From Chlamydiia bacterium (GTDB lineage: Bacteria > Chlamydiota > Chlamydiia > Chlamydiales > RGXB01): DNA of 64,000 nt. Location of the stretch: the NCBI GenBank assembly GCA_040382515.1, contig JBEIFH010000003.1, positions 6,965 to 70,964 on the forward strand, written 5' to 3'. The first letter of the stretch is position 1. Each line of letters opens with the position of its first letter. The translations under genes and the position numbers were made by a program. The notes beneath the pieces are model-generated. The model did not search any database. It was not told the DNA's origin and saw nothing but the letters and a program-made list of their open reading frames with translations. Shown piece by piece: positions 26,646 through 56,340 of the stretch.

Positions 26646-27608
26646 TTAATTTAGCTCAAATACCTCTATTGAGTCAAATTTACCTTGATGGATCCCTGAA
26701 GTTTTGATGCTAAGCCTGAATTTTTTCCCTTTGGTAGGGAGGTTTTTCGGAATTTTTCCCTTCAAATGGTGGGTTTCTCCCTTCTGCTCATCTGTAAATT
26801 CGATAGGCAGCGAGGTCTGGGTCCCCACTTGTTCCAAAGATAGGGTGAACGGGGCAAACCCCTTAGGGCAACAGATCGTGGCGACCAGGCTGGACCCTTT
26901 TTGTAGGATCCCCTGTTGAAATTCGGGAAAACGGCGGGGAAAGTATCTTGCCGCACCTTTGCTATGATTCCCCTGGTCCAGTTGAAAAAATCTTGCGAGG
27001 GGGTGGGTTTTGTTCTGGATGTCGATCATATAGGGGAATGTCTCGGTTGCCGTCGGGTCGAAATGCAAGTCGATCCTCAGTCCGCTTAAAGGGGAGTTGT
27101 CATCATCCCAATATTTTCTAAATAAGCTCGATTTTTCAACCAATACGGGTTTATTTGAGACCGATTTGGGGGGCGACCAGACCTTTTTTGTTTTAGGGGA
27201 TACCTTGCGTCTATTGTCCGGCATCAAATCCCACTCAATCAAGTAAAGTTTTGCCAGTGTCGGGGGCTCTTGGTCAAAGTTTATAAAGGCTTTTTTTGGG
27301 GGGCAATAGGCTTCCAGGATTTCACCGGTATCGGCATGCATTTCATATAAAATCCACTGTGTTGCGTTAAGAGCCCCTTTTTCCACCCAGCCGCTAACGG
27401 CGTCTAACGACAATTTGGGATTGGAGTCCAAAGAGTGGATCTCTTCTATGATCAGTGTTTTTTCCGTTTTATCGTAAATTGAAATATAGACGATTTGATG
27501 CCCTTGTCTGTAGACGACAAAATCCCCTTTGACACCCTTGGAATATTTTTCTTTAAAAGAAAATCCGAAAAGGGGAATGAATAGAACTAGGAGTATCCAT
27601 CGCAGCAT
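26646..27608 (-). CDS. hypothetical secreted protein
   Basis: 320 aa with the N-terminal signal-like MLRWILLVLFIPLFGFSF. It lies 8 nt upstream of lepB on the same strand. Confidence 0.6.
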   Translation of the reverse strand: MLRWILLVLFIPLFGFSFKEKYSKGVKGDFVVYRQGHQIVYISIYDKTEKTLIIEEIHSLDSNPKLSLDAVSGWVEKGALNATQWILYEMHADTGEILEAYCPPKKAFINFDQEPPTLAKLYLIEWDLMPDNRRKVSPKTKKVWSPPKSVSNKPVLVEKSSLFRKYWDDDNSPLSGLRIDLHFDPTATETFPYMIDIQNKTHPLARFFQLDQGNHSKGAARYFPRRFPEFQQGILQKGSSLVATICCPKGFAPFTLSLEQVGTQTSLPIEFTDEQKGETHHLKGKIPKNLPTKGKKFRLSIKTSGIHQGKFDSIEVFELN

Positions 27609-34862: not shown

Positions 34863-36173
34863 CTATTTTTTCCTGTGGGCTACAATTGAATGGTAGGCTT
34901 TTAGCGCCTCATCGCGGGCTTCGGCGTGATCCACAATTCTCCTAGAAGGCTCTTTTACCCATTTCTTGATGTACTCGTGGGTAGGATCAAATTTAGCCTC
35001 TTGAAGATCGGGGTGGAAAATTCTAAAGAAGGGGGCCGCGTCCGCACCGCACCCTCCGACCCACTGCCATCCAAGTGTATTGGAGGCTAGATCAGCGTCC
35101 ACAAGGCAGTCCCAGAACCATTTCGCCCCCTCGAGCCAGTGAATCCTTAGATCCTTGATCAAAAACGAGCCGACAATCATCCGAACGCGGTTATGCATCC
35201 AACCGGTATACTTAAGTTCTTTCATACCAGCATCTACGATGGGAAAGCCGGTCTCGCCATTTTGCCAGGCTTTGAGGAGCTTGGCATTTTTTTGCCAGGG
35301 AAAAGCGTCAAATTCGGGTTTTAGAGGATGGTCAGTGGTATGGGGAAAATGGTAGAGCAGGTGCTTAGCAAACTCTCTCCAGACGAGTTCTTTGCGGTAT
35401 GTTAAAGAGGCCTTTGCACTATGCCAGGCTGCCCTTGGGCTGATTTCCCCGTGGTGCAGGTGGGGAGATAATTTCGAACTCCCTTCGATCGCGGGAAAAT
35501 TACGGTCATGCTCATAATCTTCCACTCGACCTTTGTCGATAAAGGTCTTAAGGCGCTTTTTCGCCCCTTTTTCTCCTGGTTCCCAGAGTAGGGGTATTTG
35601 GTGGAGATCCCAGGTTTGCGTCAAATGGAGCTTGGAAATCGGCTCACTAGCCCCTTTGAGGCAAGAAAAGAGAGATCTTGGCGCCGGCATCGGCTCTTCG
35701 GGGGCTTGAAATTGTTGGGTGCGATTCCAGAATGGAGTGTAAACCTGGTAGGGCTTCCCCTCTTTGGTAAGTACGGTTTCAGGGTTGTAGAGGAGGTTAT
35801 GGTGAAATTTGTGGGACGCAATACCGTATCGTTTGCAAAGGGCTTCCACCCTGCTTTCAATCTTTCTCTCCTCCGGCTCGTAGTTCGCACCGTAGTAGAG
35901 GGCTTCGGCCTTATGTTTTCGTATCAGTGTTTCCAGAATCTCTTCGGTTTCCCCATGAAATAGGTTTAAGAATCCCCCCTTAGCCTCAATAGACTCCTTA
36001 AAAGCCACTAAAGATTGCTCCAGCCACCATTGGGATGCGCGACCAATCGACCAGTGCTTGGTCTTTTCAAGTATATACACAAGCACCAGGGGGCGTCCTG
36101 CCTCGATGGCTAATAGAAGAGGGTAGTGATCTTCAAGTCGTAGATCCTGCCGAAACCAAACAATAGAACTCAT
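34863..36173 (-). CDS. phr: deoxyribodipyrimidine photolyase / cryptochrome family
   Basis: Contains TGFPIVDAGMKELKYTGWMHNRVRMIVGSFLIKDL and LGWQWVGGCGADAAPFFRIF. Confidence 0.9.
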   Translation of the reverse strand: MSSIVWFRQDLRLEDHYPLLLAIEAGRPLVLVYILEKTKHWSIGRASQWWLEQSLVAFKESIEAKGGFLNLFHGETEEILETLIRKHKAEALYYGANYEPEERKIESRVEALCKRYGIASHKFHHNLLYNPETVLTKEGKPYQVYTPFWNRTQQFQAPEEPMPAPRSLFSCLKGASEPISKLHLTQTWDLHQIPLLWEPGEKGAKKRLKTFIDKGRVEDYEHDRNFPAIEGSSKLSPHLHHGEISPRAAWHSAKASLTYRKELVWREFAKHLLYHFPHTTDHPLKPEFDAFPWQKNAKLLKAWQNGETGFPIVDAGMKELKYTGWMHNRVRMIVGSFLIKDLRIHWLEGAKWFWDCLVDADLASNTLGWQWVGGCGADAAPFFRIFHPDLQEAKFDPTHEYIKKWVKEPSRRIVDHAEARDEALKAYHSIVAHRKK

Positions 36174-36325: not shown

Positions 36326-36757
36326 TTAAGCATTTTTTGTTAAATCGATTTCTATACCATTATTAAAAAAAGCAGATACAGACCACCTTGCAACCGATGA
36401 TGCCTTTTCAGCAACAAATGCAACTCCCTTAACGGCAGCATCCTTGAAGGCCGCAGGGTTTTTCGCCACCACTAGGGCTCCGATGACAGCGACTGTCCCG
36501 GCGGCAAAGACCGCCCGCTTAGTTCCTTTTGCAGGAGCTTCGGTTTGTGTTTCAACAGATGCACAGATAGAATGAACCTCTGTTCCTTTTGCAGGAGCTT
36601 CGGTTTGTGTTTCAACAGATGCACAGATAGAATGAACCTCTAATTTTGCGATCTTTGCATGTAGTTCTTTGTTTTCTGAATCGTATGCCGTATTAGCTTT
36701 TTGCAAATCACTGATCATAGCCATTTGCCTTTCCACAATGCTTATTTGAGAACTCAT
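36326..36757 (-). CDS. small coiled-coil protein with a hydrophobic C-terminal region and an internal 20-aa duplication
   Basis: 143 aa. EVHSICASVETQTEAPAKGT occurs twice, followed by AVFAAGTVAVIGALVVAKNPAAF. AAGGAG lies 6 nt upstream of the ATG. Confidence 0.6.
   Translation of the reverse strand: MSSQISIVERQMAMISDLQKANTAYDSENKELHAKIAKLEVHSICASVETQTEAPAKGTEVHSICASVETQTEAPAKGTKRAVFAAGTVAVIGALVVAKNPAAFKDAAVKGVAFVAEKASSVARWSVSAFFNNGIEIDLTKNA
36522..36641. repeat. perfect 2 x 60-bp tandem duplication inside the CDS
   Basis: gttccttttgcaggagcttcggtttgtgtttcaacagatgcacagatagaatgaacctct is repeated exactly, head to tail. Confidence 0.95.
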
Positions 36758-37628: not shown

Positions 37629-37664
37629 ACAGGTTGAGAAGAATTGACCAATTTTTGTAAAAAA

Positions 37665-37769
37665 TTATTTTGCTAGCTTATAGATTTTAGAATCGGCTAT
37701 TGAAATCCCAATTCTATTATAGAATGTTGCTGAATTGTTTGGATTAATATTTTCGATTGAATTTGCCAT
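37665..37769 (-). CDS. possible 34-aa small ORF
   Basis: AAGGAG lies 7 nt upstream of the ATG. Translation is MANSIENINPNNSATFYNRIGISIADSKIYKLAK. It lies just upstream of the 123-aa ORF. Confidence 0.3.
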   Translation of the reverse strand: MANSIENINPNNSATFYNRIGISIADSKIYKLAK

Positions 37770-38601
37770 CTTTGTTCTCCTTGTAAGATGTAAATTTTAA
37801 ACTATTATTGTGTTTTTTTTTATATAAATTTTTACGCAAATGTTCTAATTAGTTGGATTTGTGGGGGATAAAAATAATAATCTTTTTTTGGCCAATTACG
37901 GATTCAACGGCTAAAAAAGGGATAAAGGGGCAGATGCCTATTTAAACTAGGTTCCAGGGTTCCCTTTTAGGGGGAAAATAGCCGCTAAGGGAGTTAGGCT
38001 TAGGACTTGTAACCTCAGCAGTTTAGCGTTTTGTCCAGGAGCAATACAATGCAAGGGAAGTTGCAACCCTTTTGTGCTCGTTTGCAAATTGCTACCGGAC
38101 TCTAACCTAGGTAAGGATTGTTTGGTTTTGGAGCCTTTTTCGGGTTTTTTTATGGGTTATCCTGAAAGGCCCCTTTATTCTTTTTAGTTACCGGGGTTTT
38201 ACCAGAGGCCGGAAATTCTTCTTTATGGATCCTCATCTTTGGAGGTTACGGCAGAAAAGAGGCAAAAAGAGGGATAAAATAGGTATAATATATTTTACAA
38301 TCTTTAAAAGCTCTACGTAGAAATAAACACGATAAAATGAATTATTGGACAAACAGTGGTTTTGAGAGCATTAAGACTAAAAGTAGCGCATCTAGATGGG
38401 GGAAATTCCCTAAATTAGACCCTTAAGGCAAGCTTAAAGCCAGATAACAAAACCCTAAATAACAGTTGTCCGATTAAACTCGCTTTCTTGGAGGAGGTGC
38501 TACAGTTGTTTTTTTGGTGCTTTTCAAAGAGATCGCCTTCTTTAAGGCGCAGGAAGTAGATAGTGGTTGGCTTAGGTCGTAAAGAGGCTATCGTCAAAAA
38601 A

Positions 38602-38626
38602 AGCCCTGTTCAGAACAGGGCTTTTT
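38602..38626 (+). terminator. stem-loop plus T-run (orphan copy of the terminator module)
   Basis: agccctgtt-cag-aacagggct followed by ttttt, with an A-run on the 5' side. Confidence 0.55.
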
Positions 38627-38914
38627 CTCTTTTTGAGGATTTCTCATTTTTTTCTCTCTTCAAAAAAGAGAAAGCAGCAAACCCTATTTTGAGATCAAAA
38701 GAAGAGGAACCCTAGGCTCAATAGGGCCTCCAGCCTTTCTTTTAGACGAGTTTTGGATTTTATACCCTCGAAACCGGCTCAGATATATGTCTCATTGAAA
38801 GGGTTGCATAAATTAGGCCCTATAAATCTGATCCTTCAACTTGCGGTTTATAGCTATAAGCGCACCGTCGCGCTAACATCCTTTCCTTTAGATGTATATA
38901 AATAAATAATTTTA

Positions 38915-38943
38915 TTTACAAAAAAATATATATGTGTTATAAT
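38915..38943 (+). promoter_or_regulatory. sigma-70-type promoter with extended -10
   Basis: TTTACA (38915-38920), 17-nt spacer ending in TGt, TATAAT (38938-38943). It lies 24 nt upstream of the ATG at 38967, which has a GGGGGGAA RBS. Confidence 0.6.
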
Positions 38944-38966
38944 AAATACATTGGGGGGAAATACAT

Positions 38967-39458
38967 ATGCCATTTGATACGGTTGTAAATACATGTGCTT
39001 GCGGGGGGGCAATCGAATATTCTGGGCAGGCTAACAAAGCTCAACATCCAGACTCAGATCTTGAGAAAAAAGTCGCTAATCTTGGTAAGGAACTATTAAA
39101 TACTCAAGCACAGTTAGAAACTTTAAACGACGAATTTGAAACAGCCCAAACGGAAGCTGTAAAATTTTTTTCAGAACTTCAAGGCAAAAATGAAGAATTG
39201 AGTTCAAGTAACAGACGTCTTTTAGCGGAACTTAAAGGTTCAAAACAAAGATTAACAACATATGAAGTTAAAGATGGATTAAGCAAAGCTACAATAGAGC
39301 AGCTTCGAACTCAAATTTCTGGACTTTCTAATCGAAAAAGCTTACAGGATCGTTGTGCTCTTTTGAAATTCCAAAGAGACTTATTGGCAGGTAGCTTGGT
39401 CGGTATAACTTTGGTTGCTGGAGCTATCTTAGCCTTTATGATGGGCAAAGCTCGCTAA
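38967..39458 (+). CDS. tail-anchored coiled-coil protein
   Basis: 163 aa. It has long heptad-like stretches (LEKKVANLGKELLNTQAQLETLNDEFETAQTE...) and a single C-terminal transmembrane segment, LLAGSLVGITLVAGAILAFMMGKAR. Confidence 0.65.
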   Translation: MPFDTVVNTCACGGAIEYSGQANKAQHPDSDLEKKVANLGKELLNTQAQLETLNDEFETAQTEAVKFFSELQGKNEELSSSNRRLLAELKGSKQRLTTYEVKDGLSKATIEQLRTQISGLSNRKSLQDRCALLKFQRDLLAGSLVGITLVAGAILAFMMGKAR

Positions 39459-39530
39459 TTTAAGATCAAGATCCATTGGTTCTCTGAGCTTTAAGTTTTT
39501 TTATCTAAAGGTTAGACAATCCCATAAAAA

Positions 39531-39558
39531 AGCCCCTGTTCTGAACAGGGCTTTTTTT
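39531..39558 (+). terminator. rho-independent terminator
   Basis: agcccctgtt-ctg-aacagggct followed by ttttttt, about 70 nt after the stop at 39458. Confidence 0.7.
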
Positions 39559-40266
39559 GCTTGAGGGGTCTTCATTTTTTTCTCCCTTTAAAAAAGAGGA
39601 AAAGGGCCAATTTATTTGCAAGAGTTCGAGCTCTGCGACCTTCGGTATTCTCAAGAAGAAAGGGGGGTGGGCCTAAGAAGGTTATCTCGATTGACCGGGC
39701 TAACTATAAATGATCTCACTTTGGGGGGAAATATTCTTCAACCCAGTTTAAATAAACACTTAGCTTTCTATTTGCTTGATCCTTATAGGTCTTACCGGTA
39801 TTTGCATGCGTTCTATCTTTAAACGCTTTCAAGTTGAGTTTTTCAAAAAGATCGCAGATCTGTTCATGAACCCTCTAAGCGTTCTTGAAGCATACGGATC
39901 CATCGGGTTTCTCTTTTTAAATTTTCACAAAGTAGATGAATGATGTCATTTATAGTTTTTTGTAGTGGATCATCATCTACTTATTTTAATTTAAGATTTC
40001 ACATGTCTATAAAACATAAATTTTTGTTAAGTTTTCTTAATAGGGTCAAACGTGTAAAGGTGAATAAACTGAAAAATTTTCTGCACAGATTTTAAAATTT
40101 ACATGGTAACCTGCTGCACTTTTGCTTTTGTTTGAAAAAAAAGAGTGGCTGTTTCTTGAGAAATGAAAAGGGATTGGATTAGAAGTAGGGGCTAACGGTT
40201 GCATAAAAAAATCTCCTTAAGAAGATATCTTTAAGTTGTAGTGTGATAGAAAGAACAATTTTTCGT

Positions 40267-46696: not shown

Positions 46697-49675
46697 CTAG
46701 AAAGAGTTTTGTTTTTTTGATTGTGAAACCAGATCTTTGAACAGACCCTCTTTACTCATCAAATCTGTATATGTTCCTGAGTCGACAACTTTCCCCTGAT
46801 CCATCACATAGATCCGGTCTGCATTGACGATTGTGCTAAGTCTGTGGGCGATAACGATTCTTGTTATGTTGAGTTCGGCTACGTTTTTAGATAAAATTTC
46901 TTGAGAATTTGCATCCAGGCAATTTGAGGCTTCGTCTAAAATCAATACTCTAGGCTTACCGATCAAGGCCCTTGCGATCAAAATCCGCTGCGCTTCGCCG
47001 CTGCTTAATGTGAGGGCATCACTTTGTAAAAAAGTGTGCAGGCCCATACCCATTTTTTTAAGATCTTCCTCTAAGTTAGCCAGCTTCACGGCCCTCTCGA
47101 CGTCTTCTTTTGAGTAGAGGCCACCACAAACTATATTCTGATAGATAGTTCCTGTAAAAATGGATCCATTTTGGAGCACCACCCCGAGTTTACGCCTCAG
47201 TTCTCTTTTGTTGAGAGTGCGGATGTCCTGATTATCGAAAAAAACAGTGCCTATCTGGGGAGTTTCAAAACCCAGAAGAATCCTAACTAAAGTGGATTTC
47301 CCACAACCGGAAGCTCCGACTAAAGCTACAAATTCTCCGGGCAAAAATTGGAGCGAGATATTATCCAATACATTTGGTAAACCTTCCCCATAGCTGAAGG
47401 TGACGTGATCCACATTCACCAAACCCTCCAGATCGTCCACCTTGATTTTATCCTTTTCGGACTCTATTTCACCTTTTAAAATACACTGTGCCCTTTCCCA
47501 TAACGGTATGACCTTAGCTAAATCCATGAAAATTTGAACTAAATTTGTGATTCCAACAGAAAAGGGGATGTAGGCTGAAAAAAAACCTACAAGCTTTCCA
47601 ATCGTGAATATATAGTCTCGAATATGATCATTAGTCGAGATGAGATATTTTGTAATTACCCCAAAAAATATTAAATAAGAGACAATAGGGACAAGATTTA
47701 TTAGAATTTCAACAGAGTTTGTTAAAACCAGAGACTTTGAAAATAGAAGCCGCTGTTTAGAAAAAAATGGACACCAGTACTCAAAAGCGTAGGCTTCTGC
47801 CCCATGCGATCTGATCTTGGAAATACCCGAAATTACTTGCGAAATTATGCTATTGATGAACCCACTCAATTCGAGGTATTTTCTCTGGATCAATACTTTT
47901 TTATATAGAAGAAAAGAGTTTACCGCGCCAACAGCTGAGACGATACATAAACCCAATAAGGCTAATTTGGGATAGATGTAATACATAGCAAAAAAATAGA
48001 ATAGAGAGAAAAAACCTGTTAAAAGGATGTTTGAGGTAGACTGACTGAACTTTTCTTGTATCGCTTTCATGGAAGAGGCCCTTTGGATCAGATCTCCCAC
48101 AGAATATTTCTTAAAAAAGTTTACCGGGAGCTTTAAAAGTCGATCCCAAATAGCTGATTCGACTTTTAAAGAAAAAAGAGTCGACATCCGAATGAGAATG
48201 AGTCCGTTGATTATGTTGAATGTCATGACACTTATAGTAATCAAAAAAAGGGCTAGAATGACCTCTAAGTACTGACTTTTATGCCCTAATTGGATCACAT
48301 TTGTAAAAAGGAATTGATTTAAAAAGGGGACCGTTGCCGCAAGAATACCACCGAGAGTTCCGAAAAACAAAATGTAGCAAAAACTTTTTAAATTCCCGGT
48401 GAATGAAAATTTCAGAATATCTTTAATTGTCATATTCTGTTCCGGGAACGGAATGTAAAAAATGTATCCTTTTTCTTGTAGTCTATCGATCACAGGATTT
48501 GAAAGAGGCTCCTTCTCGTCTGTTTCGGGGTCATGCAAAAAATATTTTTTGCCCTTGTTGTTTAAAAGGGCTACCGGTTTCCCCTCTTTAGTAAACGCAA
48601 ATATAGGGAGGCAATCATGGGACCAAAAACCATGTACAAGTTTGATCTCTCTGTAGCGGACCCCATTTTTCTCACAAATTTCACACATCTCAAGAAAAGG
48701 ATTAGTTTCAGGAAGAGTATGTTTTTCGAATGTGAAACCCATTTCTTGTCCGATCCAGCTGCAAACTTTGAAGATAGCATCCTTACTATCTAAAGGTTCC
48801 CTTTTTTTAAACTTATTTTGGGGAATGAACGATTTTAGCCCTTTTGTAATTGAGTACTTTTTCAGTGCGATTTTTTTTTCTCTGGTCTCAATCTCTAGCT
48901 TTTTCTTTTCTGGAAAATAACGATCTATGGCACTTTCTAGAACTCGATTACGGATCCAGTTGAAAGCAAGCCAAACTCCGGGGTGCAGCAGTACCTTTTC
49001 CGGGGGTAAAGGCTTAAGTTTTGTTTTTTCTAAAGCTTTGAGGCTCCAGGTATCTAGGTAAGGATAGATTTGAATATTTTTGTCCCAGTCTAAAGTGTAA
49101 GAGGAGTCAAGATCTAATCTCCCCTCAATAATTTCCATCCAGTGCTCATGTTCCAAATTCTTTCGTGGGGGGTTTTTTTTGATACCAAATCTCTGATTTG
49201 CCTCCAATTCTACAGGCTGCTCAAAATCAATTAAAAGGTCGTTATTTTTGAAAGACTCGTTTTTAGTAAATAATCTCCTGTAATTTAAAATAGTTCTATT
49301 TATAAGCTTTAAGATTTCTAAATTAAGATGAGGTTCTTTACGAATGATTTCATCAATTTTACCGCGGGTCAATTTTAAAATCTTCATCGGGGTAAAATTG
49401 AAAAGGGCCAATCCTTGATGCTCATGAGGACGCTCGGTAGCTATAAAAAAAAGATCGCCGGGATTTAAGGCGCGTAAAAATCTCAATTGCCCCTTTTCAA
49501 TCCCTTTTATCTCAGTATTAGGGATATTTTCTGTCAAAAAGATACCGCCGTTACCCTCTTTTATAAGCCAAAAACACTCTTCCGCATCAAAGAAAGTTTT
49601 TTTATTGATCTCGATGGCAACTTCCTCGAGATCGTAATGTTTCAATTTTTCAAATAGAAATATTGGATCGCTCAT
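46697..49675 (-). CDS. ABC transporter (TMD+NBD) with a cNMP-binding-like N-terminus and a Cys-less C39-like domain
   Basis: 992 aa. Walker A GASGCGKST, signature LSSGEAQR, Walker B ILILDEAS. The N-terminus has LIKEGNGGIFL...LRALNPGDLFF. The middle region ICEKNGVRYREIKL...CLPIFAF...FLHDP resembles C39 but lacks the QxxxxCG box. Confidence 0.88.
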   Translation of the reverse strand: MSDPIFLFEKLKHYDLEEVAIEINKKTFFDAEECFWLIKEGNGGIFLTENIPNTEIKGIEKGQLRFLRALNPGDLFFIATERPHEHQGLALFNFTPMKILKLTRGKIDEIIRKEPHLNLEILKLINRTILNYRRLFTKNESFKNNDLLIDFEQPVELEANQRFGIKKNPPRKNLEHEHWMEIIEGRLDLDSSYTLDWDKNIQIYPYLDTWSLKALEKTKLKPLPPEKVLLHPGVWLAFNWIRNRVLESAIDRYFPEKKKLEIETREKKIALKKYSITKGLKSFIPQNKFKKREPLDSKDAIFKVCSWIGQEMGFTFEKHTLPETNPFLEMCEICEKNGVRYREIKLVHGFWSHDCLPIFAFTKEGKPVALLNNKGKKYFLHDPETDEKEPLSNPVIDRLQEKGYIFYIPFPEQNMTIKDILKFSFTGNLKSFCYILFFGTLGGILAATVPFLNQFLFTNVIQLGHKSQYLEVILALFLITISVMTFNIINGLILIRMSTLFSLKVESAIWDRLLKLPVNFFKKYSVGDLIQRASSMKAIQEKFSQSTSNILLTGFFSLFYFFAMYYIYPKLALLGLCIVSAVGAVNSFLLYKKVLIQRKYLELSGFINSIISQVISGISKIRSHGAEAYAFEYWCPFFSKQRLLFSKSLVLTNSVEILINLVPIVSYLIFFGVITKYLISTNDHIRDYIFTIGKLVGFFSAYIPFSVGITNLVQIFMDLAKVIPLWERAQCILKGEIESEKDKIKVDDLEGLVNVDHVTFSYGEGLPNVLDNISLQFLPGEFVALVGASGCGKSTLVRILLGFETPQIGTVFFDNQDIRTLNKRELRRKLGVVLQNGSIFTGTIYQNIVCGGLYSKEDVERAVKLANLEEDLKKMGMGLHTFLQSDALTLSSGEAQRILIARALIGKPRVLILDEASNCLDANSQEILSKNVAELNITRIVIAHRLSTIVNADRIYVMDQGKVVDSGTYTDLMSKEGLFKDLVSQSKKQNSF

Positions 49676-49677
49676 AA

Positions 49678-51900
49678 TTACTCTATCACCTCAGCCAAGA
49701 TAGAGTCCTTGTAGTGTCCATCTTGAAGCATAAGCTCCTGATGCGTCCCTCTTTGGACTATCTCACCCTTATTCAGGACAATAATTTCATCGCAATCTTT
49801 TACGGTAGCAAGCCTTTGGGCTATAATGATCGAGGCGCAACCCCTGGTGCGTAAATTGAGGCTTATTGTGGCTTCAGTTTTATAATCCAAAGCGCTTGAG
49901 ACCTCATCTGTAATTAGAATAGTAGGGTTCTTTGCTAAACCCCGGGCTATTTCTAATCTTTGTCGTTGGCCTCCGCTAAAAACTGTCCCCCCTTCACAAA
50001 TCACATTCTCGTAGCCCTTGGCTCTCTTCATAATGATGTCGTGTATGCAAGCATCTTTACATGATTTTGTCAGATCCTCCTCACTCACTAACTCATCCCA
50101 AAAAGTGAGATTGTTTTTTATGGTTTCCTGAAAAAAGAATAGAGAGGAATCTATAAAGGAAATAGAGGATCTAAAAACTTCATCGGGGATTTCTTCGATA
50201 GGTTTACCATCGTAAAGGATTTGACCTGTCCAAGGACGATACAAACCTGCAGCTAGGCGTGCTATTGTTGTTTTGCCTGAACCAACAGGCCCCACAAGTC
50301 CGATTCTTTTACCGGGTTCTAACTTTAGGTTGATGTTTTTTATTCTAGGCCCCTCTGTTTTACTGAAACCGAACGAAACGTCTATGAATTCAACGTAACC
50401 CTTTAAATTTTCTAAAGACGCCCCATTTTCGATGCTTTTAGGGCGTTCAAATAACGTTTCAGATGTATTGTCCATCACGTCATTCAATCTTTTGATATTG
50501 ATTAACATCGTCTGTAATTGACTCGACACATTCATCAATTGATTTATTGGAAACATGAAATATAAAAAAAACGATTGTAACGAGATCAGCATACCAACCG
50601 TGAGTTCCCCGTTTAAGATCTGTAGCGCGCCAATCGCTAAAAGAGCCGCCATCCCAAGCTGCAACGATGCAGTAGGGAACATTGTGAGGATAAGACTCTT
50701 GAATTGCGTATTGAAGGACGCATTTGTCATTTTTGCGTAATAACCGCTGAGAATCCCAAACGAGGTCATTTCATTCCCGGCCGATTTTATCGCCTCAATA
50801 GATCGTAAAAGGCTATAAGCGTAACCGACAGTTTTACCGTATTCCTGTTGCATAGCTGTGAATGCATCATTGCGGGAGCGGTTAATCAAAATGAATAAAA
50901 GAACATTCAAACTAGCCAAAATCAAAGCTAAAATACCTATTGGACCACTAAATAAAAAAATGGTGCAGAGGTAAAAAACCAGTAAAAGAATATTTATAGC
51001 CAAGTAGATGAATTGGCTCGACAGCACTGAAGATACAATCTCATTTAAGGTGTATCTCCATGCGATCTCCCCGGTAGATCTTTGTGAGAAAAAAAGCAAG
51101 GGGAGCTTCAAAATATGCCAAAAAAATGAGGTCGTCGAAGTTATAGTCATTTTAGTGAATAATTTCTGTATCATGTTATATTCGAATAGATTCAATAACA
51201 GTGTGACAATAAAAACAGCTAGCAATAGTCCTATTAGCAAATAACCCGCTTGTGCATTTGAGGCCGTAAGCACTTTGTCGTAAAAAAACTGGATTGAAAT
51301 AGGGACGAAAAAACAGGGAAGTAAAAGGAACGTTTTGCAAATCGACAAAAATACAATCGGTTTATAGAAACCTTTTAAGCGTCTTACCAACAGGTTTCGA
51401 AAACTATCAGGTTCACCCTTTGGTTGAAAATTTTCCGTTGGTTTAAAAGTGAGAACGTAACCGGTAAACCCCTCATCAAATACCTCGCGCGTGACTCTTC
51501 TTGGGCCCCCTTCCGGATCATTTAAGTAGATAAAATTCTTGTCCATTCCCTCGAACACTAGGTAATGGTTAAAATTCCAGTATATTATGCTTGGCAGAGG
51601 AATTTTATCGAGATCCTCCATCTCATAAGTCCGACCTTCTGTCTTAAGGCCAAAAGTTTCGGCTGCATTCGCAATATCTTTTATTGAGGTGCCATCCCTT
51701 GTGACACCGCATGTAACTCTTAGTTCTGCCAAAGGGACAAACAATTTATAATATCCGAGAATAATAGCTAAAGCAGCAGCGCCACATTCGACATTTTGCA
51801 TTTGAATAATAGTCGGAGTTCTTACTCTTTTGATCCCAAACCGGAAGGAGGGGAATTTCAGGCTACATAACTCTTTAATCCAACTGAAAAAGGGTCTCAA
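49678..51900 (-). CDS. bacteriocin/peptide-exporting ABC transporter with an N-terminal C39 peptidase domain
   Basis: 740 aa. QMQNVECGAAALAIILGYY carries the catalytic Cys, NHYLVFEG the His, and LNDPEGGPR follows. Walker A GPVGSGKTT, signature FSGGQRQR, Walker B ILITDEVS. Confidence 0.9.
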   Translation of the reverse strand: MRPFFSWIKELCSLKFPSFRFGIKRVRTPTIIQMQNVECGAAALAIILGYYKLFVPLAELRVTCGVTRDGTSIKDIANAAETFGLKTEGRTYEMEDLDKIPLPSIIYWNFNHYLVFEGMDKNFIYLNDPEGGPRRVTREVFDEGFTGYVLTFKPTENFQPKGEPDSFRNLLVRRLKGFYKPIVFLSICKTFLLLPCFFVPISIQFFYDKVLTASNAQAGYLLIGLLLAVFIVTLLLNLFEYNMIQKLFTKMTITSTTSFFWHILKLPLLFFSQRSTGEIAWRYTLNEIVSSVLSSQFIYLAINILLLVFYLCTIFLFSGPIGILALILASLNVLLFILINRSRNDAFTAMQQEYGKTVGYAYSLLRSIEAIKSAGNEMTSFGILSGYYAKMTNASFNTQFKSLILTMFPTASLQLGMAALLAIGALQILNGELTVGMLISLQSFFLYFMFPINQLMNVSSQLQTMLINIKRLNDVMDNTSETLFERPKSIENGASLENLKGYVEFIDVSFGFSKTEGPRIKNINLKLEPGKRIGLVGPVGSGKTTIARLAAGLYRPWTGQILYDGKPIEEIPDEVFRSSISFIDSSLFFFQETIKNNLTFWDELVSEEDLTKSCKDACIHDIIMKRAKGYENVICEGGTVFSGGQRQRLEIARGLAKNPTILITDEVSSALDYKTEATISLNLRTRGCASIIIAQRLATVKDCDEIIVLNKGEIVQRGTHQELMLQDGHYKDSILAEVIE

Positions 51901-51909
51901 ACATGACTC

Positions 51910-52940
51910 CTATTCCGGAAAAATTAAATCTATAGGACGCTTTTTCGAAATATGAACCCGAATATTGCAAAATTCAGGTGTAAAGCGGAAATTTTTTGGA
52001 CCTTTTTTTGAGGTCCATAGATAACCGGAAGGATCATTAGGATCTTTTTGTATTTCTATCCTTAAGTTGTATTTAGGATATTCTTCACCAATAAATTTTT
52101 GGAAAACTTCATTTTTTGCTAAATATTTCAAAAAACGTTCAGAGGTCCCCGGGTACGGATCCACATAAACAACTTTGCCCACTATGCTCCCATAAACAGG
52201 ATCCACATATTTTTGCATGGAGATGTAAGCTGTCATCCCCGCTTGGATTTTTCGCCCACTCGTGATATCAAAAAATCCGTAGACAAGGATATCATCCCCT
52301 TTCGTAAAGGGGGGGTCAACTAGGCAGATTTCAGTCCCAGCGGAAATGTAGTCTCCGGGCCCAACATACTTTGCAACAATCTCGCCTTCCACCTCGGAAA
52401 AAATAGGGATAAGAAGGGGATTTGCCTCTAATTCGTTTAAAATTTGTGTCTGTTGTTCGAGTTCCAGCTTAAGAGCTTCTACTTCGGGAGTGCTTTCTTG
52501 AGACTTCATACGATCTAAAGAAAATTGGATCTTGGCTATTTTAGAACACTGGTCATTGTAAGAACTTAGGTAGTTTTTGTCGTAAATTTTAGCTACTATC
52601 GTATGTTCATTTACAATTTCCCCTTCAAAAAGGGGCATTGATTCGACCAATCCCTCGTTTCTTGAGTATATGTAGTGTAACCCTTCCGAAGTTAAAACAA
52701 TTCCCTTCCCATCGGCATCGGAAACGATTTTCCCTTTGAAAAGCCAAATAAAAAAAAAGAGGACTATGACTCCTAAACAACCGAGGCCTAGCCATTCTTT
52801 GGGTCGAATAATCCGGATTAAAATATTTAGATCATCGGGTGAGATGAATGTATCTTCTTTTCCTTTTCTAAAGCGGGGTGAGTCGTAATTGTTTTTATTT
52901 TTTTCGAGCTGAGTTTGCCCGTTTTCTTTTGTAGAATCAT
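51910..52940 (-). CDS. HlyD-family membrane fusion protein with a disrupted or unclear 5' end
   Basis: The track ORF (TTG at 52650) lacks the membrane anchor. The same frame stays open up to 52989 and encodes FRKGKEDTFISPDDLNILIRIIRPKEWLGLGCLGVIVLFFFIW, a typical HlyD N-terminus, but it has no ATG/GTG/TTG. The ATG at 52940 is one frame off and would be joined by +1 A in the A7 run at 52898-52904. Confidence 0.7.
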
Positions 52941-53121
52941 CAGCGTTATTTTTTCCACAAAATATCTCAAAAAAACAATTAATTTTCTGTTAATAGAACC
53001 GCAATTAATTGTCAAAAATAGTTCCCCGGAAAAAATAAAAATAAATTTATATAATTCTTTACTTCCAAAATGCTGTTCAAAAAATTCGTCAGTCGACGGC
53101 CCTTTTTTTATTTTGCTCTGA

Positions 53122-53201
53122 CTTTTTATATAAACCCATTTGTGTTATTCTTTTTTCACTTTGGACGGAAGGAAAGTGAGATACGTATCTACAAAAAGGG
53201 A
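53122..53201. repeat. direct repeat flanking the export cassette, right copy
   Basis: Diverged copy of 46566-46641. It overlaps the 5' end of the oxidoreductase gene. Confidence 0.7.
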
Positions 53202-54129
53202 ATGCTATTTTGTTGCAGGGAGAGGTTTTGGGGGCCTTGCCATCTGTTACCATTTAAAGAAAAAGGTTCCCGATTCAAAAATTTTCCTCTTCGATCCCAA
53301 TCCTCTTTTCACATCCGCTTCCTCTGCGGCGAGTGGTCTTTTGGAGCCGATCGGGGGGCGCCTTGCAGCCAGATCGCCAAGAGCGAATGAGGGGTTGGAG
53401 GCGACCAAAGAGCTCTTGGATGCGGCAAGTTTTCATGTGAACAAAAAAGTTTATAAAGAGGGGGGGGTGCTCCATGCGCCCATCTCAGCTGAACAAAGGG
53501 CGGTGTTTGAAAAAAAAAGGGGGCTGAATCCCCAGTATTTCGAATGGACGCAAGGGGGAGAATTTCTGGTTAAAGAGGGGGTGAATGTATTTTCCAGAGA
53601 CTATCTTGAGGCGCTCTATTCCTTGGTACTATCCATGGGGGTGGAATTTGCCCCTGAAAAGGTTCCCCAAGACTCCAATGTCAAACAGATTTTTTATGCC
53701 ATCGGTAAAGAGATAGATAAAAAGCTTCCCGGCCAATTCCAATTGATTAGGGGGCAAGCTATGCAGGTGCAAACGGGGGAATCCATTTTTAACCTCCCTA
53801 AAGTTCATAAAGGTTACATAGCTTTGGATAGCGATCCCACCATTTACCACGTGGGTTCCACCTTTGAAAGGACAAATTTGGATCTTCCAGGTGACAAACA
53901 GGTTGCGGTGAAGGAGTTGATCGAGCGCAATAGGGAAATTTTTCCCGAAGTGGCCTTTTTGAGTCCTTTGGGTGTGTACGAGGGGATAAGGGTCTATTCT
54001 CAAACACAAGACCGGCTTCCCCGGATTATTTCTTTGGGGGGGAATCAAGTTGCCTTAGCCGGCCTTGGATCAAAGGGTCTTTTGTACCATGCACTCTATG
54101 CTAAGGAGATTGTGAGTGGGTACGCTTAA
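53140..54129 (+). CDS. FAD-dependent oxidoreductase (DAO-like)
   Basis: N-terminal dinucleotide fold YFVAGRGFGGLAICYHL. The real start may be the GTG near 53176. The C-terminus has GLGSKGLLYH. Confidence 0.7.
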   Translation: MCYSFFTLDGRKVRYVSTKRECYFVAGRGFGGLAICYHLKKKVPDSKIFLFDPNPLFTSASSAASGLLEPIGGRLAARSPRANEGLEATKELLDAASFHVNKKVYKEGGVLHAPISAEQRAVFEKKRGLNPQYFEWTQGGEFLVKEGVNVFSRDYLEALYSLVLSMGVEFAPEKVPQDSNVKQIFYAIGKEIDKKLPGQFQLIRGQAMQVQTGESIFNLPKVHKGYIALDSDPTIYHVGSTFERTNLDLPGDKQVAVKELIERNREIFPEVAFLSPLGVYEGIRVYSQTQDRLPRIISLGGNQVALAGLGSKGLLYHALYAKEIVSGYA

Positions 54130-54215
54130 TTTTCTGTAGCTCAAAGAACTTTTTTTCTAAAATTTACCGGAAGCAGTTTCACAAAAAAATTCAAAGCGGT
54201 GTACTATGGAAAGTT

Positions 54216-55019
54216 ATGACGCAAGCTCTATTCACTCTATTGGGGGTCGGCACCTCATCAGGCGTACCGCGCTTAGGTTGTTCGTGTCCCATTTGCACAA
54301 AAACTGACATCGAACCCAAGAACAGGCGCCAAAGGGTCGCCGGTTTGCTTGAGATCGGCGATAAAAAACTCCTCGTGGATGCGGGGCCCGATATAAGAAA
54401 TCAACTGTTGGAGCAAAAAGTCTGTCACATTGATGCCCTCTTTTTGACACACGAACATTTTGATCATATCGCCGGGATCGATGATGTGAAATGGATCACC
54501 GGTTATCCAAAACAATCTCTACCGATTTATGCGAACAGACCTACATATTTAGACCTAAAGAAACGGATCGCTTATCTTTTAAAGCCTGCTCTTCCCGGAA
54601 ATTCCCCCTCTTTTTATTTAAAGCAGATGCGCACATGGGAGGTGCTTGATTTTCACGGGGTAGAAATTCAAACTCTGGAGTACTCGCAGCAAAATGAGGG
54701 GCATACGAAGCCGACCCAAGTCACCGGTTTCAGGCTCGGAGATTTTGCTTTTTTAACCGATATCAAGCGTTATGAGCCCAGGTTGATCCAAGAATTGAAA
54801 GGGATAAAGACCCTAGTGTTAGGTGCTGTTCGCGACGGGGATTCGATTGCCCATTTTACCTTTGAGGAGGCGCACCATTTCAGTAAGCTCTCAGGGGCAG
54901 AAAAAACCTTTTTTATCCATCTCGACCACTCAGTCGATTACCCCGAAGCTTCAAAGCGGTTGCCCCCCAATGTCCAACTTGGGTATGATGGGTTGAAAAT
55001 AGTGATCAATCTTTCTTAA
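54216..55019 (+). CDS. MBL-fold metallo-hydrolase (PhnP-like)
   Basis: LLGVGTSSGVPRLGCSCPICT and the THEHFDH (HxHxDH) motif. Confidence 0.8.
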   Translation: MTQALFTLLGVGTSSGVPRLGCSCPICTKTDIEPKNRRQRVAGLLEIGDKKLLVDAGPDIRNQLLEQKVCHIDALFLTHEHFDHIAGIDDVKWITGYPKQSLPIYANRPTYLDLKKRIAYLLKPALPGNSPSFYLKQMRTWEVLDFHGVEIQTLEYSQQNEGHTKPTQVTGFRLGDFAFLTDIKRYEPRLIQELKGIKTLVLGAVRDGDSIAHFTFEEAHHFSKLSGAEKTFFIHLDHSVDYPEASKRLPPNVQLGYDGLKIVINLS

Positions 55020-55059
55020 AAATGGATATATCCTTAAGACCCCTTTCGAAGAGTAGCCT

Positions 55060-56340
55060 ATGACAACCCCATTAAAAAAAGCCCTACTTGTAGGCCCCTA
55101 TAGCGGTGCATCCGCAAAACAGGCTTGCCTGGATTCTTTAGAAGAGCTCAAGGCCTTGGGTGAAACCTATGGTTTTACCGAGTTTGGATTCGAGCCTTGT
55201 CCGATCAAAAAAGTGGAGGCTGCTACCTTTATCGGGGAGGGAAAAGTGGAGGAGGTGCATCAAAGGATGCAGGCTGAGGGCTTTGATTGCATGATTTTTG
55301 ATGAGGAGATCTCTCCAAACCAGCAGCGCAACATGGAGGAGATTTTAAAAAAACCGGTGATCGACAGGACAGGTCTCATCATTGAGGTTTTTGCCCAAAG
55401 GGCCCACTCCAAGGAGGCAAGACTACAGGTTGAATCGGCTAAGATCCGCTATGAGCTGCCCCGTTTGAAGCGCCTTTGGACACACCTTTCACGCCAGCGT
55501 ACCGGTGGCGGAGGGGGGAGTGGAGGTGGTGGATACCTCAAAGGGGAGGGGGAGAAGCAGATTGAGATAGACCGGCGTATTTTGGATCGTCGCCTTGTTA
55601 TGGTGGAGCAGGAGATCAAAGAGGTGCGTGCCCACCGCGCTCTGCAAAGGCAGCAACGGATGCGTTCTTATATCCCGGCATTTGCAATTGTGGGGTATAC
55701 GAATGCGGGAAAATCGAGCCTTTTGAACAGCCTGACGAATGCGGGAGTTTTATCTGAAGACAAGCTCTTTGCCACGCTGGACACGACCACAAGGCGGTTT
55801 CAGCTCCCCAATCACCAAAATGTTCTTCTGATCGATACGGTTGGATTCATCCGAAAACTTCCGCATAAGTTAGTGGATGCATTCAGAAGCACCCTGGAAG
55901 AGTCGGTGTATACCGATATACTTCTTCACGTTGTGGATGCCTCGCACCCCGAAGCTTTGGAGCATGCAGCGGAATCGATACGGGTTTTAGAGGAGATCGG
56001 TGCTAAAAATAAACCGGTCATCACCGTCATCAATAAAGCTGACAAGGTGGAAGACACGAAGATCATTGATGATTTACGTTATATTTACCCGTGTACTGTG
56101 GTGATTTCTACATTGACACGTCAGGGTTACGATGAGCTTTTTCAGTTGATGATAGAGAAGATCCAGTCTTTAAGAAAAGTTATGGAGCTGTGCATTCCCC
56201 AAAGTCATTATCACGTAGCCGCAGAGTTGATGAAGGAGGGGCGGGTTTTGGATACCGCATACGAGGGAAACGATATTCTCCTTACTATAGAAATTCCTCA
56301 GTCTCTCGAATACAAAGCGCTCCCTTACAAAAGGGGATGA
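55060..56340 (+). CDS. hflX: GTPase HflX
   Basis: G1 GYTNAGKSSLLN, G3 DTVGF, G4 NKAD, and the HflX N-terminal domain with a Gly-rich insert. Confidence 0.92.
   Translation: MTTPLKKALLVGPYSGASAKQACLDSLEELKALGETYGFTEFGFEPCPIKKVEAATFIGEGKVEEVHQRMQAEGFDCMIFDEEISPNQQRNMEEILKKPVIDRTGLIIEVFAQRAHSKEARLQVESAKIRYELPRLKRLWTHLSRQRTGGGGGSGGGGYLKGEGEKQIEIDRRILDRRLVMVEQEIKEVRAHRALQRQQRMRSYIPAFAIVGYTNAGKSSLLNSLTNAGVLSEDKLFATLDTTTRRFQLPNHQNVLLIDTVGFIRKLPHKLVDAFRSTLEESVYTDILLHVVDASHPEALEHAAESIRVLEEIGAKNKPVITVINKADKVEDTKIIDDLRYIYPCTVVISTLTRQGYDELFQLMIEKIQSLRKVMELCIPQSHYHVAAELMKEGRVLDTAYEGNDILLTIEIPQSLEYKALPYKRG

What the first reader, a model, noticed from the sequence alone, without database searches (positions are those of the whole stretch)
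46697..52992. Three-gene Gly-Gly-leader peptide export cassette with no visible substrate gene
The minus strand carries three genes in order: an HlyD-family adaptor, an ABC exporter with an intact C39 peptidase domain (QxxxECG Cys box and NHY His box), and a second ABC exporter. The second exporter has a cNMP-binding-like N-terminus followed by a C39-like domain that lacks the catalytic Cys.

From memory, this triad and order match the TIGRFAMs 'NHLM bacteriocin system' secretion set (HlyD TIGR03794, peptidase-ABC TIGR03796, second ABC TIGR03797). In cyanobacteria and other free-living bacteria that set exports nitrile-hydratase-leader or Nif11-leader peptides. I found no short ORF with a Gly-Gly leader next to the cassette and no modification enzyme. 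Such a system is unexpected in a genome that otherwise looks like an obligate intracellular bacterium, and its cargo is unknown.
Basis: partly seen in the sequence, partly recalled or inferred. Interest (0 to 1): 0.7.

Follow-up and report, generated by a model that had tools for sequence, protein, structure and literature searches.

The report
Divergent chlamydial peptide exporter, adaptor frameshifted
An environmental chlamydia carries a three-gene machine of a known type that cuts a leader off small peptides and pumps them out, but this copy has a one-base frameshift in one gene and its cargo gene lies outside the 64-kb window.

Summary
The three minus-strand genes are real: ABC2 (46697-49675), C39-peptidase ABC1 (49678-51900) and a HlyD-like adaptor (51910-52970). 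The NHLP/NHLM export models are by far the best match. However, both ABC proteins fall just under the curated cut-offs (809.9 vs 853.3; 700.5 vs 709.4).

1. The adaptor gene is frameshifted eight codons in. Its poly-A run is A6, against A7 or A9 in relatives, and an independent assembly shows the same A6.
2. ABC1 has a His-to-Gln H-loop and ABC2 has an LSSGE signature. This clade-specific pair predicts a heterodimer with one degenerate ATP site.
3. Related Chlamydiae MAGs carry this cassette plus a sister copy. The sister copy sits beside a stand-alone LanM-type dehydratase and a 38-aa gene with a hypervariable tail.

No precursor or modification enzyme lies in the window or about 12 kb of extra flank, by HMM, tblastn and motif scans. 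Unlinked cargo is normal for this family. The cassette is under purifying selection and lies in a recombination block.

Verdict: a divergent variant of a known exporter type, cargo unresolved, possibly switched off in this strain. Moderate interest.

The parts
46697..49675 (-). ABC2: 992-aa ABC exporter subunit with canonical Walker A (GASGCGKST), Walker B (LILDEA) and H-loop (IAHR), but a deviant signature motif (LSSGE)
   Evidence: ORF. TIGR03797 700.5 bits against cut-off 709.4, residues 299-984; next best family 303 bits. PF00664 and PF00005. Motifs. dN/dS 0.12.
49226..49675 (-). ABC2 N-terminal extension (about residues 1-150) with a CRP/cNMP-binding-like beta-roll. It lacks the Arg-Ser/Thr-Ala phosphate-binding motif.
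   Evidence: No Pfam hit in the window protein or in 10 homologs. A 7-sequence profile gives NtcA at E=0.09. A 24-sequence profile gives 4EV0 (Crp family) at E=2.3e-5 and 2PQQ at E=1.6e-3, profile positions 31-110. The single-sequence AlphaFold model was unusable (pLDDT 34.5).
48416..48781 (-). ABC2 C39-like domain (about residues 299-420) without catalytic residues: Asp299 at the Cys position, Pro367 (invariant PVALL) at the His position, Asp-Pro retained
   Evidence: TIGR03797 alignment starts at residue 299. HlyB aligns from residue 353 to HlyB residue 69, inside its C39-like domain. Column comparison across 7 homologs. hhalign against C39 is weak (E=0.076) but co-linear at the His and Asp motifs.
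49678..51900 (-). ABC1: 740-aa peptidase-containing ABC exporter (PCAT) with canonical Walker A/B and signature (FSGGQ), but H-loop His replaced by Gln (IIAQR, residue 695)
   Evidence: ORF with TTG start and a GGAG motif 6 nt upstream. TIGR03796 809.9 bits against cut-off 853.3; next best family 332 bits. H-loop Gln occurs only in the window and P0001-P0009, out of 120 homologs. dN/dS 0.11-0.13.
51433..51819 (-). C39 double-glycine peptidase domain of ABC1 (residues 28-156) with intact Gln33/Cys39/His112/Asp128
   Evidence: PF03412 123 bits. 6MPZ LahT150 at E=8e-40. LahT catalytic residues from PMC6363468. Residues conserved in 114-120 of 120 homologs.
51910..52970 (-). HlyD-like periplasmic adaptor gene, disrupted by a 1-nt frameshift. 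Orthologs are 356 aa. The helical hairpin is shortened: TIGR03794 positions about 117-227 are unmatched.
   Evidence: Frame-corrected translation scores 162.8 bits on TIGR03794 against cut-off 156.2, in two stretches. Orthologs in L001 and L002 are intact at 356 aa. dN/dS 0.17-0.20.
52949..52954 (-). Poly-A tract at codons 6-8 of the adaptor gene: A6 here (out of frame), A7 in L001, A9 in L002/L061/L062
   Evidence: DNA alignments. Tract counts. The same A6 occurs in an independent Logan assembly, L019. The gene is called as a 242-aa truncated product in two other ENA assemblies.
52971..53139 (.). 169-bp AT-rich intergenic region shared with the divergently transcribed FAD-oxidoreductase gene. 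It is the presumed promoter region of the cassette and includes a TTGACA conserved in L001 and L002.
   Evidence: Sequence and alignment. The consensus promoter scan was no better than shuffles, so promoter function is inferred only.
46800..55200 (.). Block of unusually high identity to the L001 lineage (87-93%, against 72-77% in both flanks). It covers the cassette plus the DAO-type oxidoreductase and MBL-fold hydrolase genes. The left edge coincides with the 3' end of ABC2. The cassette itself has lower GC (0.34-0.45) than its flanks.
   Evidence: dS for cassette genes is 0.42-0.46 against about 2.1 for Mdh. Sliding identity and GC profile.

Best explanation
This is a divergent, chlamydial version of the NHLP/NHLM-type tripartite peptide exporter.

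How it most likely works:
- ABC1 and ABC2 form a heterodimeric ABC exporter (inferred).
- ABC1 supplies the active C39 protease, which cuts a leader after a Gly-Gly-type site (residues shown, activity inferred).
- ABC2 supplies a non-catalytic C39-like domain and a CRP-like beta-roll domain. These probably tether the cargo or sense a ligand (inferred).
- In this clade one of the two ATP sites is degenerate. That site is built from the ABC1 H-loop, where His is replaced by Gln, and the ABC2 signature LSSGE. ATP hydrolysis would therefore run mainly at the other site (sequence shown, consequence inferred).
- The HlyD-like adaptor, which has a short hairpin, would connect the pump to an outer-membrane channel encoded elsewhere (inferred).

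Cargo: it is not in the window. Most likely it is one or more short precursor peptides with a Gly-Gly-type leader encoded elsewhere in the genome (inferred). This inference rests on the small genes found next to the closest relatives' cassettes and on the NHLP gene next to a more distant one.

State in this strain: the adaptor gene is frameshifted in a poly-A tract. The system is therefore either switched off or makes only trace full-length adaptor, through a -1 slip of tRNA-Lys on the A-run.
For: - Family and anatomy.
- Tight operon spacing: a 2-nt gap between ABC1 and ABC2, and 9 nt with a GGAG motif between HlyD and ABC1.
- Purifying selection on all three genes, dN/dS 0.11-0.20.
- The co-varying H-loop Gln and LS[S/N]GE signature are restricted to one clade and map to the same composite ATP site.
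- The cassette is conserved in at least three related species-level MAGs and several metagenome contigs, all with an intact adaptor.
- The sister cassette is linked to a LanM-type dehydratase domain and a 38-aa gene with a hypervariable tail, a Shine-Dalgarno-like motif and a terminator-like hairpin.
- The type-A relative P0006 has two called genes of 36 and 35 aa just upstream of its adaptor gene.
- A 43%-identical relative has an NHLP precursor 2.7 kb upstream, with a conserved leader and 5-6-aa variable cores.
- Precursors of this system are known to be unlinked in many genomes.
- The frameshift recurs in an independent assembly.
Against: - Both ABC proteins score below the curated equivalog cut-offs.
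- No cargo gene was found in the 64 kb or in about 12 kb of extra flank, and the rest of the genome could not be searched.
- No outer-membrane partner was found among the ORFs scanned.
- Heterodimer formation and the degenerate site are inferred from motifs only.
- The 36- and 35-aa genes beside P0006 could not be read, because no DNA was returned.
- The type-B 38-aa peptide has a Lys-rich leader unlike the classical hydrophobic double-glycine leader, and it is absent from the more divergent type-B locus L007.
- The frameshift means the machine may not work at all in this strain.
Confidence: 0.65

Rival explanations
1. In this particular strain the cassette is a freshly inactivated remnant. 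The adaptor gene lost its start and membrane anchor through the A7-to-A6 deletion, the pump cannot span the envelope, and the still-intact ABC genes simply have not yet decayed.
For: The frameshift sits at codon 8, with a stop 47 codons later. There is no canonical start codon before 52650, which is downstream of the transmembrane helix. The same A6 occurs in an independent assembly, and gene callers give a 242-aa product in two more assemblies. All relatives are in frame.
Against: ABC1 and ABC2 have no lesions, and pairwise dN/dS values that include the window sequence are as low as those between relatives. The lesion lies in a homopolymer whose length differs between lineages (A6, A7, A9), so it is easily reversible. 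A -1 slip of tRNA-Lys on the run would restore exactly the orthologous sequence (read directly from the sequence). The reads may hold a mix of A6 and A7 that consensus assemblies hide.
Confidence: 0.3
2. The cargo is a canonical long-leader NHLP or Nif11 precursor, possibly several, encoded elsewhere and modified by TOMM or LanM enzymes, exactly as in cyanobacteria.
For: The C39 domain is closest to LahT150, which cleaves Nif11 and NHLP leaders. A 43%-identical relative has an NHLP gene nearby. The family was defined by co-occurrence with NHLP.
Against: No NHLP or Nif11 domain occurs in the window or its flanks. Searches with the L011 precursor found no homolog in the window's clade. The nearest relatives (type B, and type-A P0006) have 35-38-aa genes upstream rather than 70-100-aa ones. 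LahT150 is promiscuous, so similarity to it says little about leader type.
Confidence: 0.25
3. It is a generic multidrug or HlyB-type type I secretion system for a large protein, not a leader-cleaving peptide exporter.
For: HlyB, MsbA and ABCB1 all align to the membrane and nucleotide-binding domains.
Against: Those families score 300-330 bits against 700-810 for the NHLM models, far below their own cut-offs. ABC1 has a complete, LahT-like catalytic C39 domain, which HlyB lacks.
Confidence: 0.04

Closest known systems
NHLP/NHLM bacteriocin export system (TIGR03794 HlyD-like, TIGR03796 peptidase-ABC, TIGR03797 second ABC; Haft, Basu and Mitchell 2010, PMC2887384)
   Same: Same three proteins in the same order, and top-scoring models for all three. 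The first ABC has an active C39 domain and the second has none. The second ABC carries the roughly 300-residue N-terminal extension that is family-wide. Cargo is often unlinked.
   Different: Both ABC proteins are under the curated cut-offs. The adaptor hairpin is shortened. A clade-specific degenerate ATP site is present (H-loop Gln plus LSSGE). No NHLP or Nif11 precursor or TOMM/LanM enzyme is in reach. The host is an environmental chlamydia, and the adaptor gene is frameshifted here.
LahT / PCAT1 / ComA peptidase-containing ABC transporters (PDB 6MPZ, 4RY2, 8HF4)
   Same: The C39 domain is highly similar to LahT150 (E=8e-40), with all catalytic residues present. The domain order of peptidase, membrane domain and nucleotide-binding domain is the same.
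   Different: The solved PCAT1 and ComA entries carry a single protein sequence, and these transporters act as homodimers in Gram-positive bacteria (the latter from my own knowledge). Here a second, non-catalytic ABC subunit and a HlyD-like adaptor are encoded alongside, implying a heterodimer in a diderm envelope.
HlyB/HlyD type I secretion (C39-like domain exporters; PDB 7SGR, 8DCK)
   Same: ABC2 resembles HlyB in having a non-catalytic C39-like domain ahead of the membrane domain, together with a HlyD-family adaptor.
   Different: HlyB scores are far below its family cut-off. HlyB works as a homodimer and exports large proteins with C-terminal signals (from my own knowledge). Here an active protease subunit is paired with the non-catalytic one.
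Heterodimeric ABC exporters with one degenerate ATP site (for example TM287/288, TmrAB) - from my own knowledge, not tested here
   Same: Non-canonical residues are concentrated in one composite site: the H-loop of one subunit and the signature of the other.
   Different: Those transporters lack peptidase or C39-like domains. The analogy rests on motifs only.

Membership tests
NHLP/NHLM export system | Peptidase-ABC subunit reaches the TIGR03796 curated cut-off (853.3 bits) | tested here: not met
   809.9 bits over model positions 1-707 of 710. It is the top hit; the next family scores 332 bits. The sister type-B copy scores 833 bits, also below the cut-off.
NHLP/NHLM export system | Second ABC subunit reaches the TIGR03797 curated cut-off (709.4 bits) | tested here: not met
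   700.5 bits over model positions 2-683 of 686. It is the top hit; the next family scores 303 bits.
NHLP/NHLM export system | HlyD-like adaptor reaches the TIGR03794 curated cut-off (156.2 bits) | tested here: met
   162.8 bits, but only on a frame-corrected translation and in two stretches that skip model positions about 117-227. The gene itself is frameshifted.
NHLP/NHLM export system | Three genes adjacent and co-oriented (adaptor, peptidase-ABC, second ABC) | tested here: met
   Gene coordinates and 2-9 nt spacing. The same order occurs in all relatives.
NHLP/NHLM export system | Peptidase domain present in the first ABC and lacking in the second | tested here: met
   PF03412 hits ABC1 only. 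The catalytic Cys and His are absent from the ABC2 N-terminal region.
NHLP/NHLM export system | Genome also encodes NHLP (TIGR03793) or Nif11-type (TIGR03798) precursors | tested here: inconclusive
   None in the window (57 small ORFs scanned). None by tblastn or leader motif (which also covered extra flank). The rest of the genome was not available. A 43%-identical relative has an NHLP gene.
Peptidase-containing ABC transporter (PCAT/AMS) | N-terminal C39 domain with catalytic Cys/His/Asp, fused to an ABC membrane domain and nucleotide-binding domain | tested here: met
   PF03412, PF00664 and PF00005 all above gathering scores. Cys39/His112/Asp128 align to the LahT triad.
HlyB-type type I secretion ABC (TIGR01846) | Score at or above the 725.55-bit cut-off | tested here: not met
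   332 bits (ABC1) and 303.5 bits (ABC2).
Class II lanthipeptide cluster | LanM synthetase (dehydratase plus LanC cyclase) and a LanA precursor next to the exporter | tested here: not met
   No LanM or DUF4135 homolog in the window. The paralogous type-B cassette of related MAGs has only the N-terminal dehydratase part (TIGR03897 positions 10-271, 208 bits against cut-off 304; PF13575 193 bits) and no cyclase.
cNMP-binding domain (CRP/FNR-type effector domain) | Sequence match to the beta-roll, and presence of the phosphate-binding Arg-Ser/Thr-Ala motif | tested here: inconclusive
   The fold-level match appears only with a 24-sequence profile (4EV0 E=2.3e-5). Pfam PF00027 is not detected. No RSA/RTA motif is visible in the aligned stretch, so ligand binding is untested.

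The most novel reading that the evidence does not exclude
Freshwater chlamydiae of this genus may run a lineage-specific ribosomal-peptide system built from two paralogous heterodimeric exporters. One (type B) is hard-wired to a stand-alone LanM-type dehydratase and to tiny Lys-rich precursors that end in a Gly5 run and an 8-residue hypervariable tail. The other (type A, the one in this window) would be a free-standing, recombining copy switched on and off by a poly-A tract in its adaptor gene. Together they would deliver diversifying peptides into the host or against competitors, giving chlamydiae a secretion route and a natural-product class not described for the phylum.
Probability: 0.12. 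Interest if true: 0.7.

Novelty: new variant of a known kind. Interest (0 to 1): 0.4.

Why it matters
Chlamydiae are studied mainly through type III secretion and host manipulation. My full-text search found no paper containing both 'Chlamydiae' and 'NHLP'.

A leader-cleaving peptide exporter that is conserved, under selection and duplicated suggests that environmental chlamydiae make and export ribosomal peptides. That bears on how they compete or communicate inside protist hosts or outside them.

For transporter biology, the paired H-loop and signature changes give a natural, testable case of a PCAT-type heterodimer with one degenerate ATP site.

For this window alone the practical message is more modest. 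The annotation is essentially right, the missing cargo is expected for this family, and the adaptor gene is broken in this strain.

Tried and rejected
1. Precursor in the window. Three tests all came back negative: NCBIfam scan of 57 small and mid-size ORFs in the inter-gene gaps, tblastn with the L011 NHLP and with all type-B accessory proteins, and regex scans for classical double-glycine leaders and for C-terminal Gly-run peptides in every stop-to-stop segment of the window and about 12 kb of extra flank.
2. Neighbouring genes as modification or immunity genes. The DAO-type oxidoreductase, MBL-fold hydrolase, 262-aa membrane protein and citrate-synthase-like protein show no RiPP-related identity.
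3. Finding NHLP precursors in chlamydial genomes with the L011 peptide gave only unrelated phyla or a few tiny contigs.
4. Fetching the P0006 contig with its 36- and 35-aa upstream genes failed. No DNA came from the look-up, and the contig is absent from both the genome and metagenome collections.
5. Homolog search with the ABC2 N-terminal 440 residues returned nothing, so no deep alignment was available for structure prediction. No fold search was run on it.
6. BLASTP and hhalign of the ABC1 C39 domain against the ABC2 C39-like region were not significant.
7. The promoter/terminator consensus scan of the cassette was no better than shuffles.
8. Exact look-up of the 38-aa type-B peptides found them absent from the protein collection.
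9. A recent cyanobacterial donor is rejected. The nearest non-chlamydial ABC1 proteins are only 38-43% identical, and the chlamydia-affiliated sequences sit at the base of a neighbour-joining tree made without bootstrap support.

Full report
WHAT IS THERE

The minus strand between 46697 and 52970 carries three tightly packed genes.
- ABC2 (46697-49675, 992 aa) and ABC1 (49678-51900, 740 aa from a TTG preceded by GGAG) are intact.
- The third gene, a HlyD-like adaptor, ends at 51910 but is not an intact ORF.
- In the closest relatives it starts TTG AGA TAT TTT GTG GAA AAA AAT AAC and encodes 356 aa.
- The window has one A fewer (A6 at 52949-52954). The TTG-started frame (52970) therefore stops at 52827. 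The remaining 345 codons, including the transmembrane helix, are open in another frame that has no ATG/GTG/TTG until 52650.
- The same A6 is present in an independent Logan assembly (L019). Two further ENA assemblies call the gene as a 242-aa stump.
- The other lineages have A7 (L001) or A9 (L002, L061, L062) and are in frame.

WHAT FAMILY

- Against NCBIfam the three proteins hit TIGR03797 (700.5 bits), TIGR03796 (809.9 bits) and TIGR03794 (162.8 bits on the frame-corrected translation). For the two ABC proteins the next families (HlyB, MsbA and others) score 300-330 bits.
- The curated equivalog cut-offs are 709.4, 853.3 and 156.2. Two of the three proteins therefore narrowly fail formal membership, and one narrowly passes.
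- Pfam confirms C39 plus ABC membrane plus ABC ATPase domains for ABC1, and membrane plus ATPase domains for ABC2.
- The ABC1 peptidase domain matches the crystallised LahT150 double-glycine protease at E=8e-40. Gln33, Cys39, His112 and Asp128 align with LahT's Gln21, Cys27, His101 and Asp117. These residues are conserved in 114-120 of 120 homologs.
- ABC2 has Asp where the catalytic Cys would be and an invariant Pro (PVALL) where the His would be, but keeps the Asp-Pro motif.
- HlyB aligns with ABC2 from inside its own C39-like domain. A direct profile-profile comparison with C39 is weak (E=0.076).
- The 300 residues ahead of this domain give no Pfam hit in the window protein or in ten homologs from other phyla. 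A 24-sequence cross-phylum profile does match CRP-family cyclic-nucleotide-binding domains (4EV0 E=2.3e-5, 2PQQ E=1.6e-3). The phosphate-binding Arg-Ser/Thr-Ala motif is not evident, so the ligand is open.
- This extension is family-wide: ABC2 homologs in cyanobacteria, actinobacteria and proteobacteria are also 940-1020 aa.

A CLADE-SPECIFIC TWIST

- ABC1 has Gln instead of the H-loop His (IIAQR). Only the window protein and P0001-P0009 share this; 110 other homologs have His.
- In the same clade the ABC2 signature motif is LSSGE or LSNGE rather than xSGGQ. ABC2's Walker A, Walker B and H-loop, and ABC1's signature (FSGGQ), are canonical.
- In an ABC dimer, the H-loop of one subunit and the signature of the other face the same ATP (established ABC architecture, from my own knowledge). 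The two changes therefore fall in one composite site.
- This predicts an ABC1/ABC2 heterodimer with one degenerate and one consensus ATP site. This is inference from motifs, not a demonstrated property.

WHOSE GENOME, AND HOW WIDESPREAD

- The closest loci are MAGs titled Chlamydiae bacterium (ZE-3nov15-36, K_DeepCast_35m) at 90-93% ABC1 identity with conserved flanks.
- The window encodes a CT021-family protein. A more distant relative sits next to an ATP/ADP translocase gene.
- ABC1 relatives form a graded series: 83-93%, about 60%, 52%, 43-46%, then cyanobacterial NHLP exporters at 38-43%.
- A genome scan with the adaptor protein showed that two MAGs (ZE-3nov15-36 and ERP107066_co1_15) each carry two cassettes. 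One is the window type ('type A'). The other is a roughly 50-60% identical sister ('type B').
- On a neighbour-joining tree, types A and B are sister clades, and the other chlamydia-affiliated sequences are basal to the cyanobacterial group (no bootstrap support).
- I see no recent foreign donor. The system looks long resident and duplicated within this lineage.

THE CARGO QUESTION

- Nothing in the window qualifies as cargo. Neighbours are housekeeping genes: Mdh, a citrate-synthase-like protein, Tgt, a DAO-type oxidoreductase, an MBL-fold hydrolase, HflX, RadC and DnaG.
- 57 small ORFs gave no NHLP, Nif11 or bacteriocin hit. tblastn and motif scans of the window plus extra flank were empty.
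- This is not anomalous. Haft et al. report that precursors are often far from the export genes, and that the exporter is more widespread than NHLP.
- Relatives give three leads.
  1. A 43%-identical relative (L011) has a 91-aa NHLP gene 2.7 kb upstream. Its few homologs show a conserved leader ending ...ILASG or ...AVAGG, followed by 5-6-residue or longer variable cores.
  2. The type-B cassette is preceded by two small proteins (one weakly peroxidase-related), a 535-aa protein that is only the dehydratase half of LanM (PF13575 193 bits; TIGR03897 positions 10-271), and, further upstream, a 38-aa ORF.
  3. The 83%-identical type-A relative P0006 sits in a different genomic context, with an intact adaptor and two called genes of 36 and 35 aa just upstream on the same strand. 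Its DNA could not be retrieved.
- The 38-aa ORF of lead 2 deserves detail. Across four loci the DNA is about 98% identical, yet ten substitutions with no indels fall in the eight codons after GGA GGC GGA GGT GGG. The stop codon is kept, an AAGGG motif precedes the ATG, and an 11-bp hairpin plus T-run follows (dG -12 kcal/mol, z -3.3). The products are MKKQPKN..KKITGGGGG followed by QAIPGGRP or FTTPGSKP. This looks like a real small gene with a hypervariable tail. However, its Lys-rich leader is unlike classical double-glycine leaders, and it is absent from the more divergent type-B locus L007.
- My best guess is that type A exports short precursors encoded elsewhere. This is inference.

EVOLUTIONARY BEHAVIOUR

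- All three genes are under purifying selection (dN/dS 0.11-0.20).
- Against L001 the cassette genes have dS 0.42-0.46, while the adjacent Mdh has dS about 2.1.
- Nucleotide identity jumps from 72-77% to 87-93% exactly at the 3' end of ABC2 and stays high to about 55.2 kb, then falls again. Against L002 the pattern is different.
- The cassette is also lower in GC than its flanks.
- This mosaic is what homologous exchange of the block between related chlamydial species would produce. Together with the different context in P0006, it suggests the cassette moves.

MECHANISM AND STATE IN THIS STRAIN

- Shown by sequence: domain content, catalytic residues, motif asymmetry, operon packing, the frameshift and the selection signal.
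- Inferred: the heterodimer, cleavage coupled to export, the link to an outer-membrane channel (none found in the ORFs scanned), the cargo type, and the role of the CRP-like domain.
- With A6, the adaptor lacks its start and membrane anchor unless the ribosome slips. A -1 slip of tRNA-Lys from AAA onto the preceding AAA would read ...GAA AAA AAT AAC..., which is identical to the ortholog (read directly).
- I cannot tell whether this is a switch, a leak or a dead gene. I give about 0.3 to plain inactivation.

VERDICT

- This is a divergent variant of a known exporter type in a phylum where it has not been discussed. It has a broken adaptor in this strain and unresolved cargo.
- Interest is moderate (0.4). 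The more novel material, the type-B locus with its LanM-half enzyme and hypervariable 38-aa gene, lies outside this window.

Noticed in passing
L026:6813-6929 (also L009:3522-3638, L010:798-914, L071:1755-1871): A 38-aa gene lies upstream of the paralogous type-B cassette. The leader MKKQPKN..KKITGGGGG is conserved. The 8-residue tail differs (QAIPGGRP or FTTPGSKP) through 10 clustered substitutions, in DNA that is otherwise about 98% identical. It has a Shine-Dalgarno-like AAGGG motif and a downstream hairpin with a T-run. It is a candidate new precursor-peptide type.
   Followed up: partly
L026:7289-9936 (also L007:6245-8888, L071:2231-4875): The type-B cassette is preceded by a 156-aa protein (weak peroxidase-related/CMD-like hit), a 187-aa protein with no family, and a 535-aa protein that is only the N-terminal dehydratase part of LanM, with no LanC cyclase.
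   Followed up: partly
L011:5857-6132: An NHLP-type precursor sits next to a 43%-identical cassette. Its close homologs have very short variable cores after the ...ILASG site (IVPPA, TLPNN, VLPPEP).
   Followed up: partly
window 49678-51900: The public protein record for ABC1 (P0001) is 707 aa and starts at Met34, which would remove Gln33 and the start of the C39 domain. The TTG at 51900, with GGAG 6 nt upstream, gives 740 aa, which is the length recorded for the ortholog P0002. It is the more likely start.
   Followed up: partly
window 34863-36173: A complete DNA photolyase gene (PF00875 plus PF03441). This hints at light exposure in the life cycle of a supposedly intracellular bacterium.
   Followed up: no
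window 6658-7839, 8241-9176, 17071-17478: Two eukaryotic-type Ser/Thr protein kinase genes and a zf-MYND domain protein (Pfam marks on the same genes in L014 and L015). These are typical of host-interacting chlamydial proteins. A 973-aa protein at 3301-6222 and an 865-aa protein at 22114-24711 have no Pfam family.
   Followed up: no
window 36522-36641: A perfect 60-nt tandem duplication (two identical copies) lies inside the 143-aa ORF at 36326-36757.
   Followed up: no
window 37629-40266: A gene-poor, AT-rich stretch of about 2.6 kb. It holds two copies of a 79-nt element whose core is a palindrome (AAAAAGCCCTGTTCAGAACAGGGCTTTTT) at 38595-38674 and 39526-39604, resembling bidirectional terminators.
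   Followed up: no
window 17644-18030: A tmRNA gene on the minus strand with tag peptide AKREDAEMLLAA.
   Followed up: no
window 26646-27608: A CT021-family protein (PF24683), a Chlamydia-specific family, next to a long signal peptidase I gene (24856-26637). This supports the chlamydial origin of the window.
   Followed up: no
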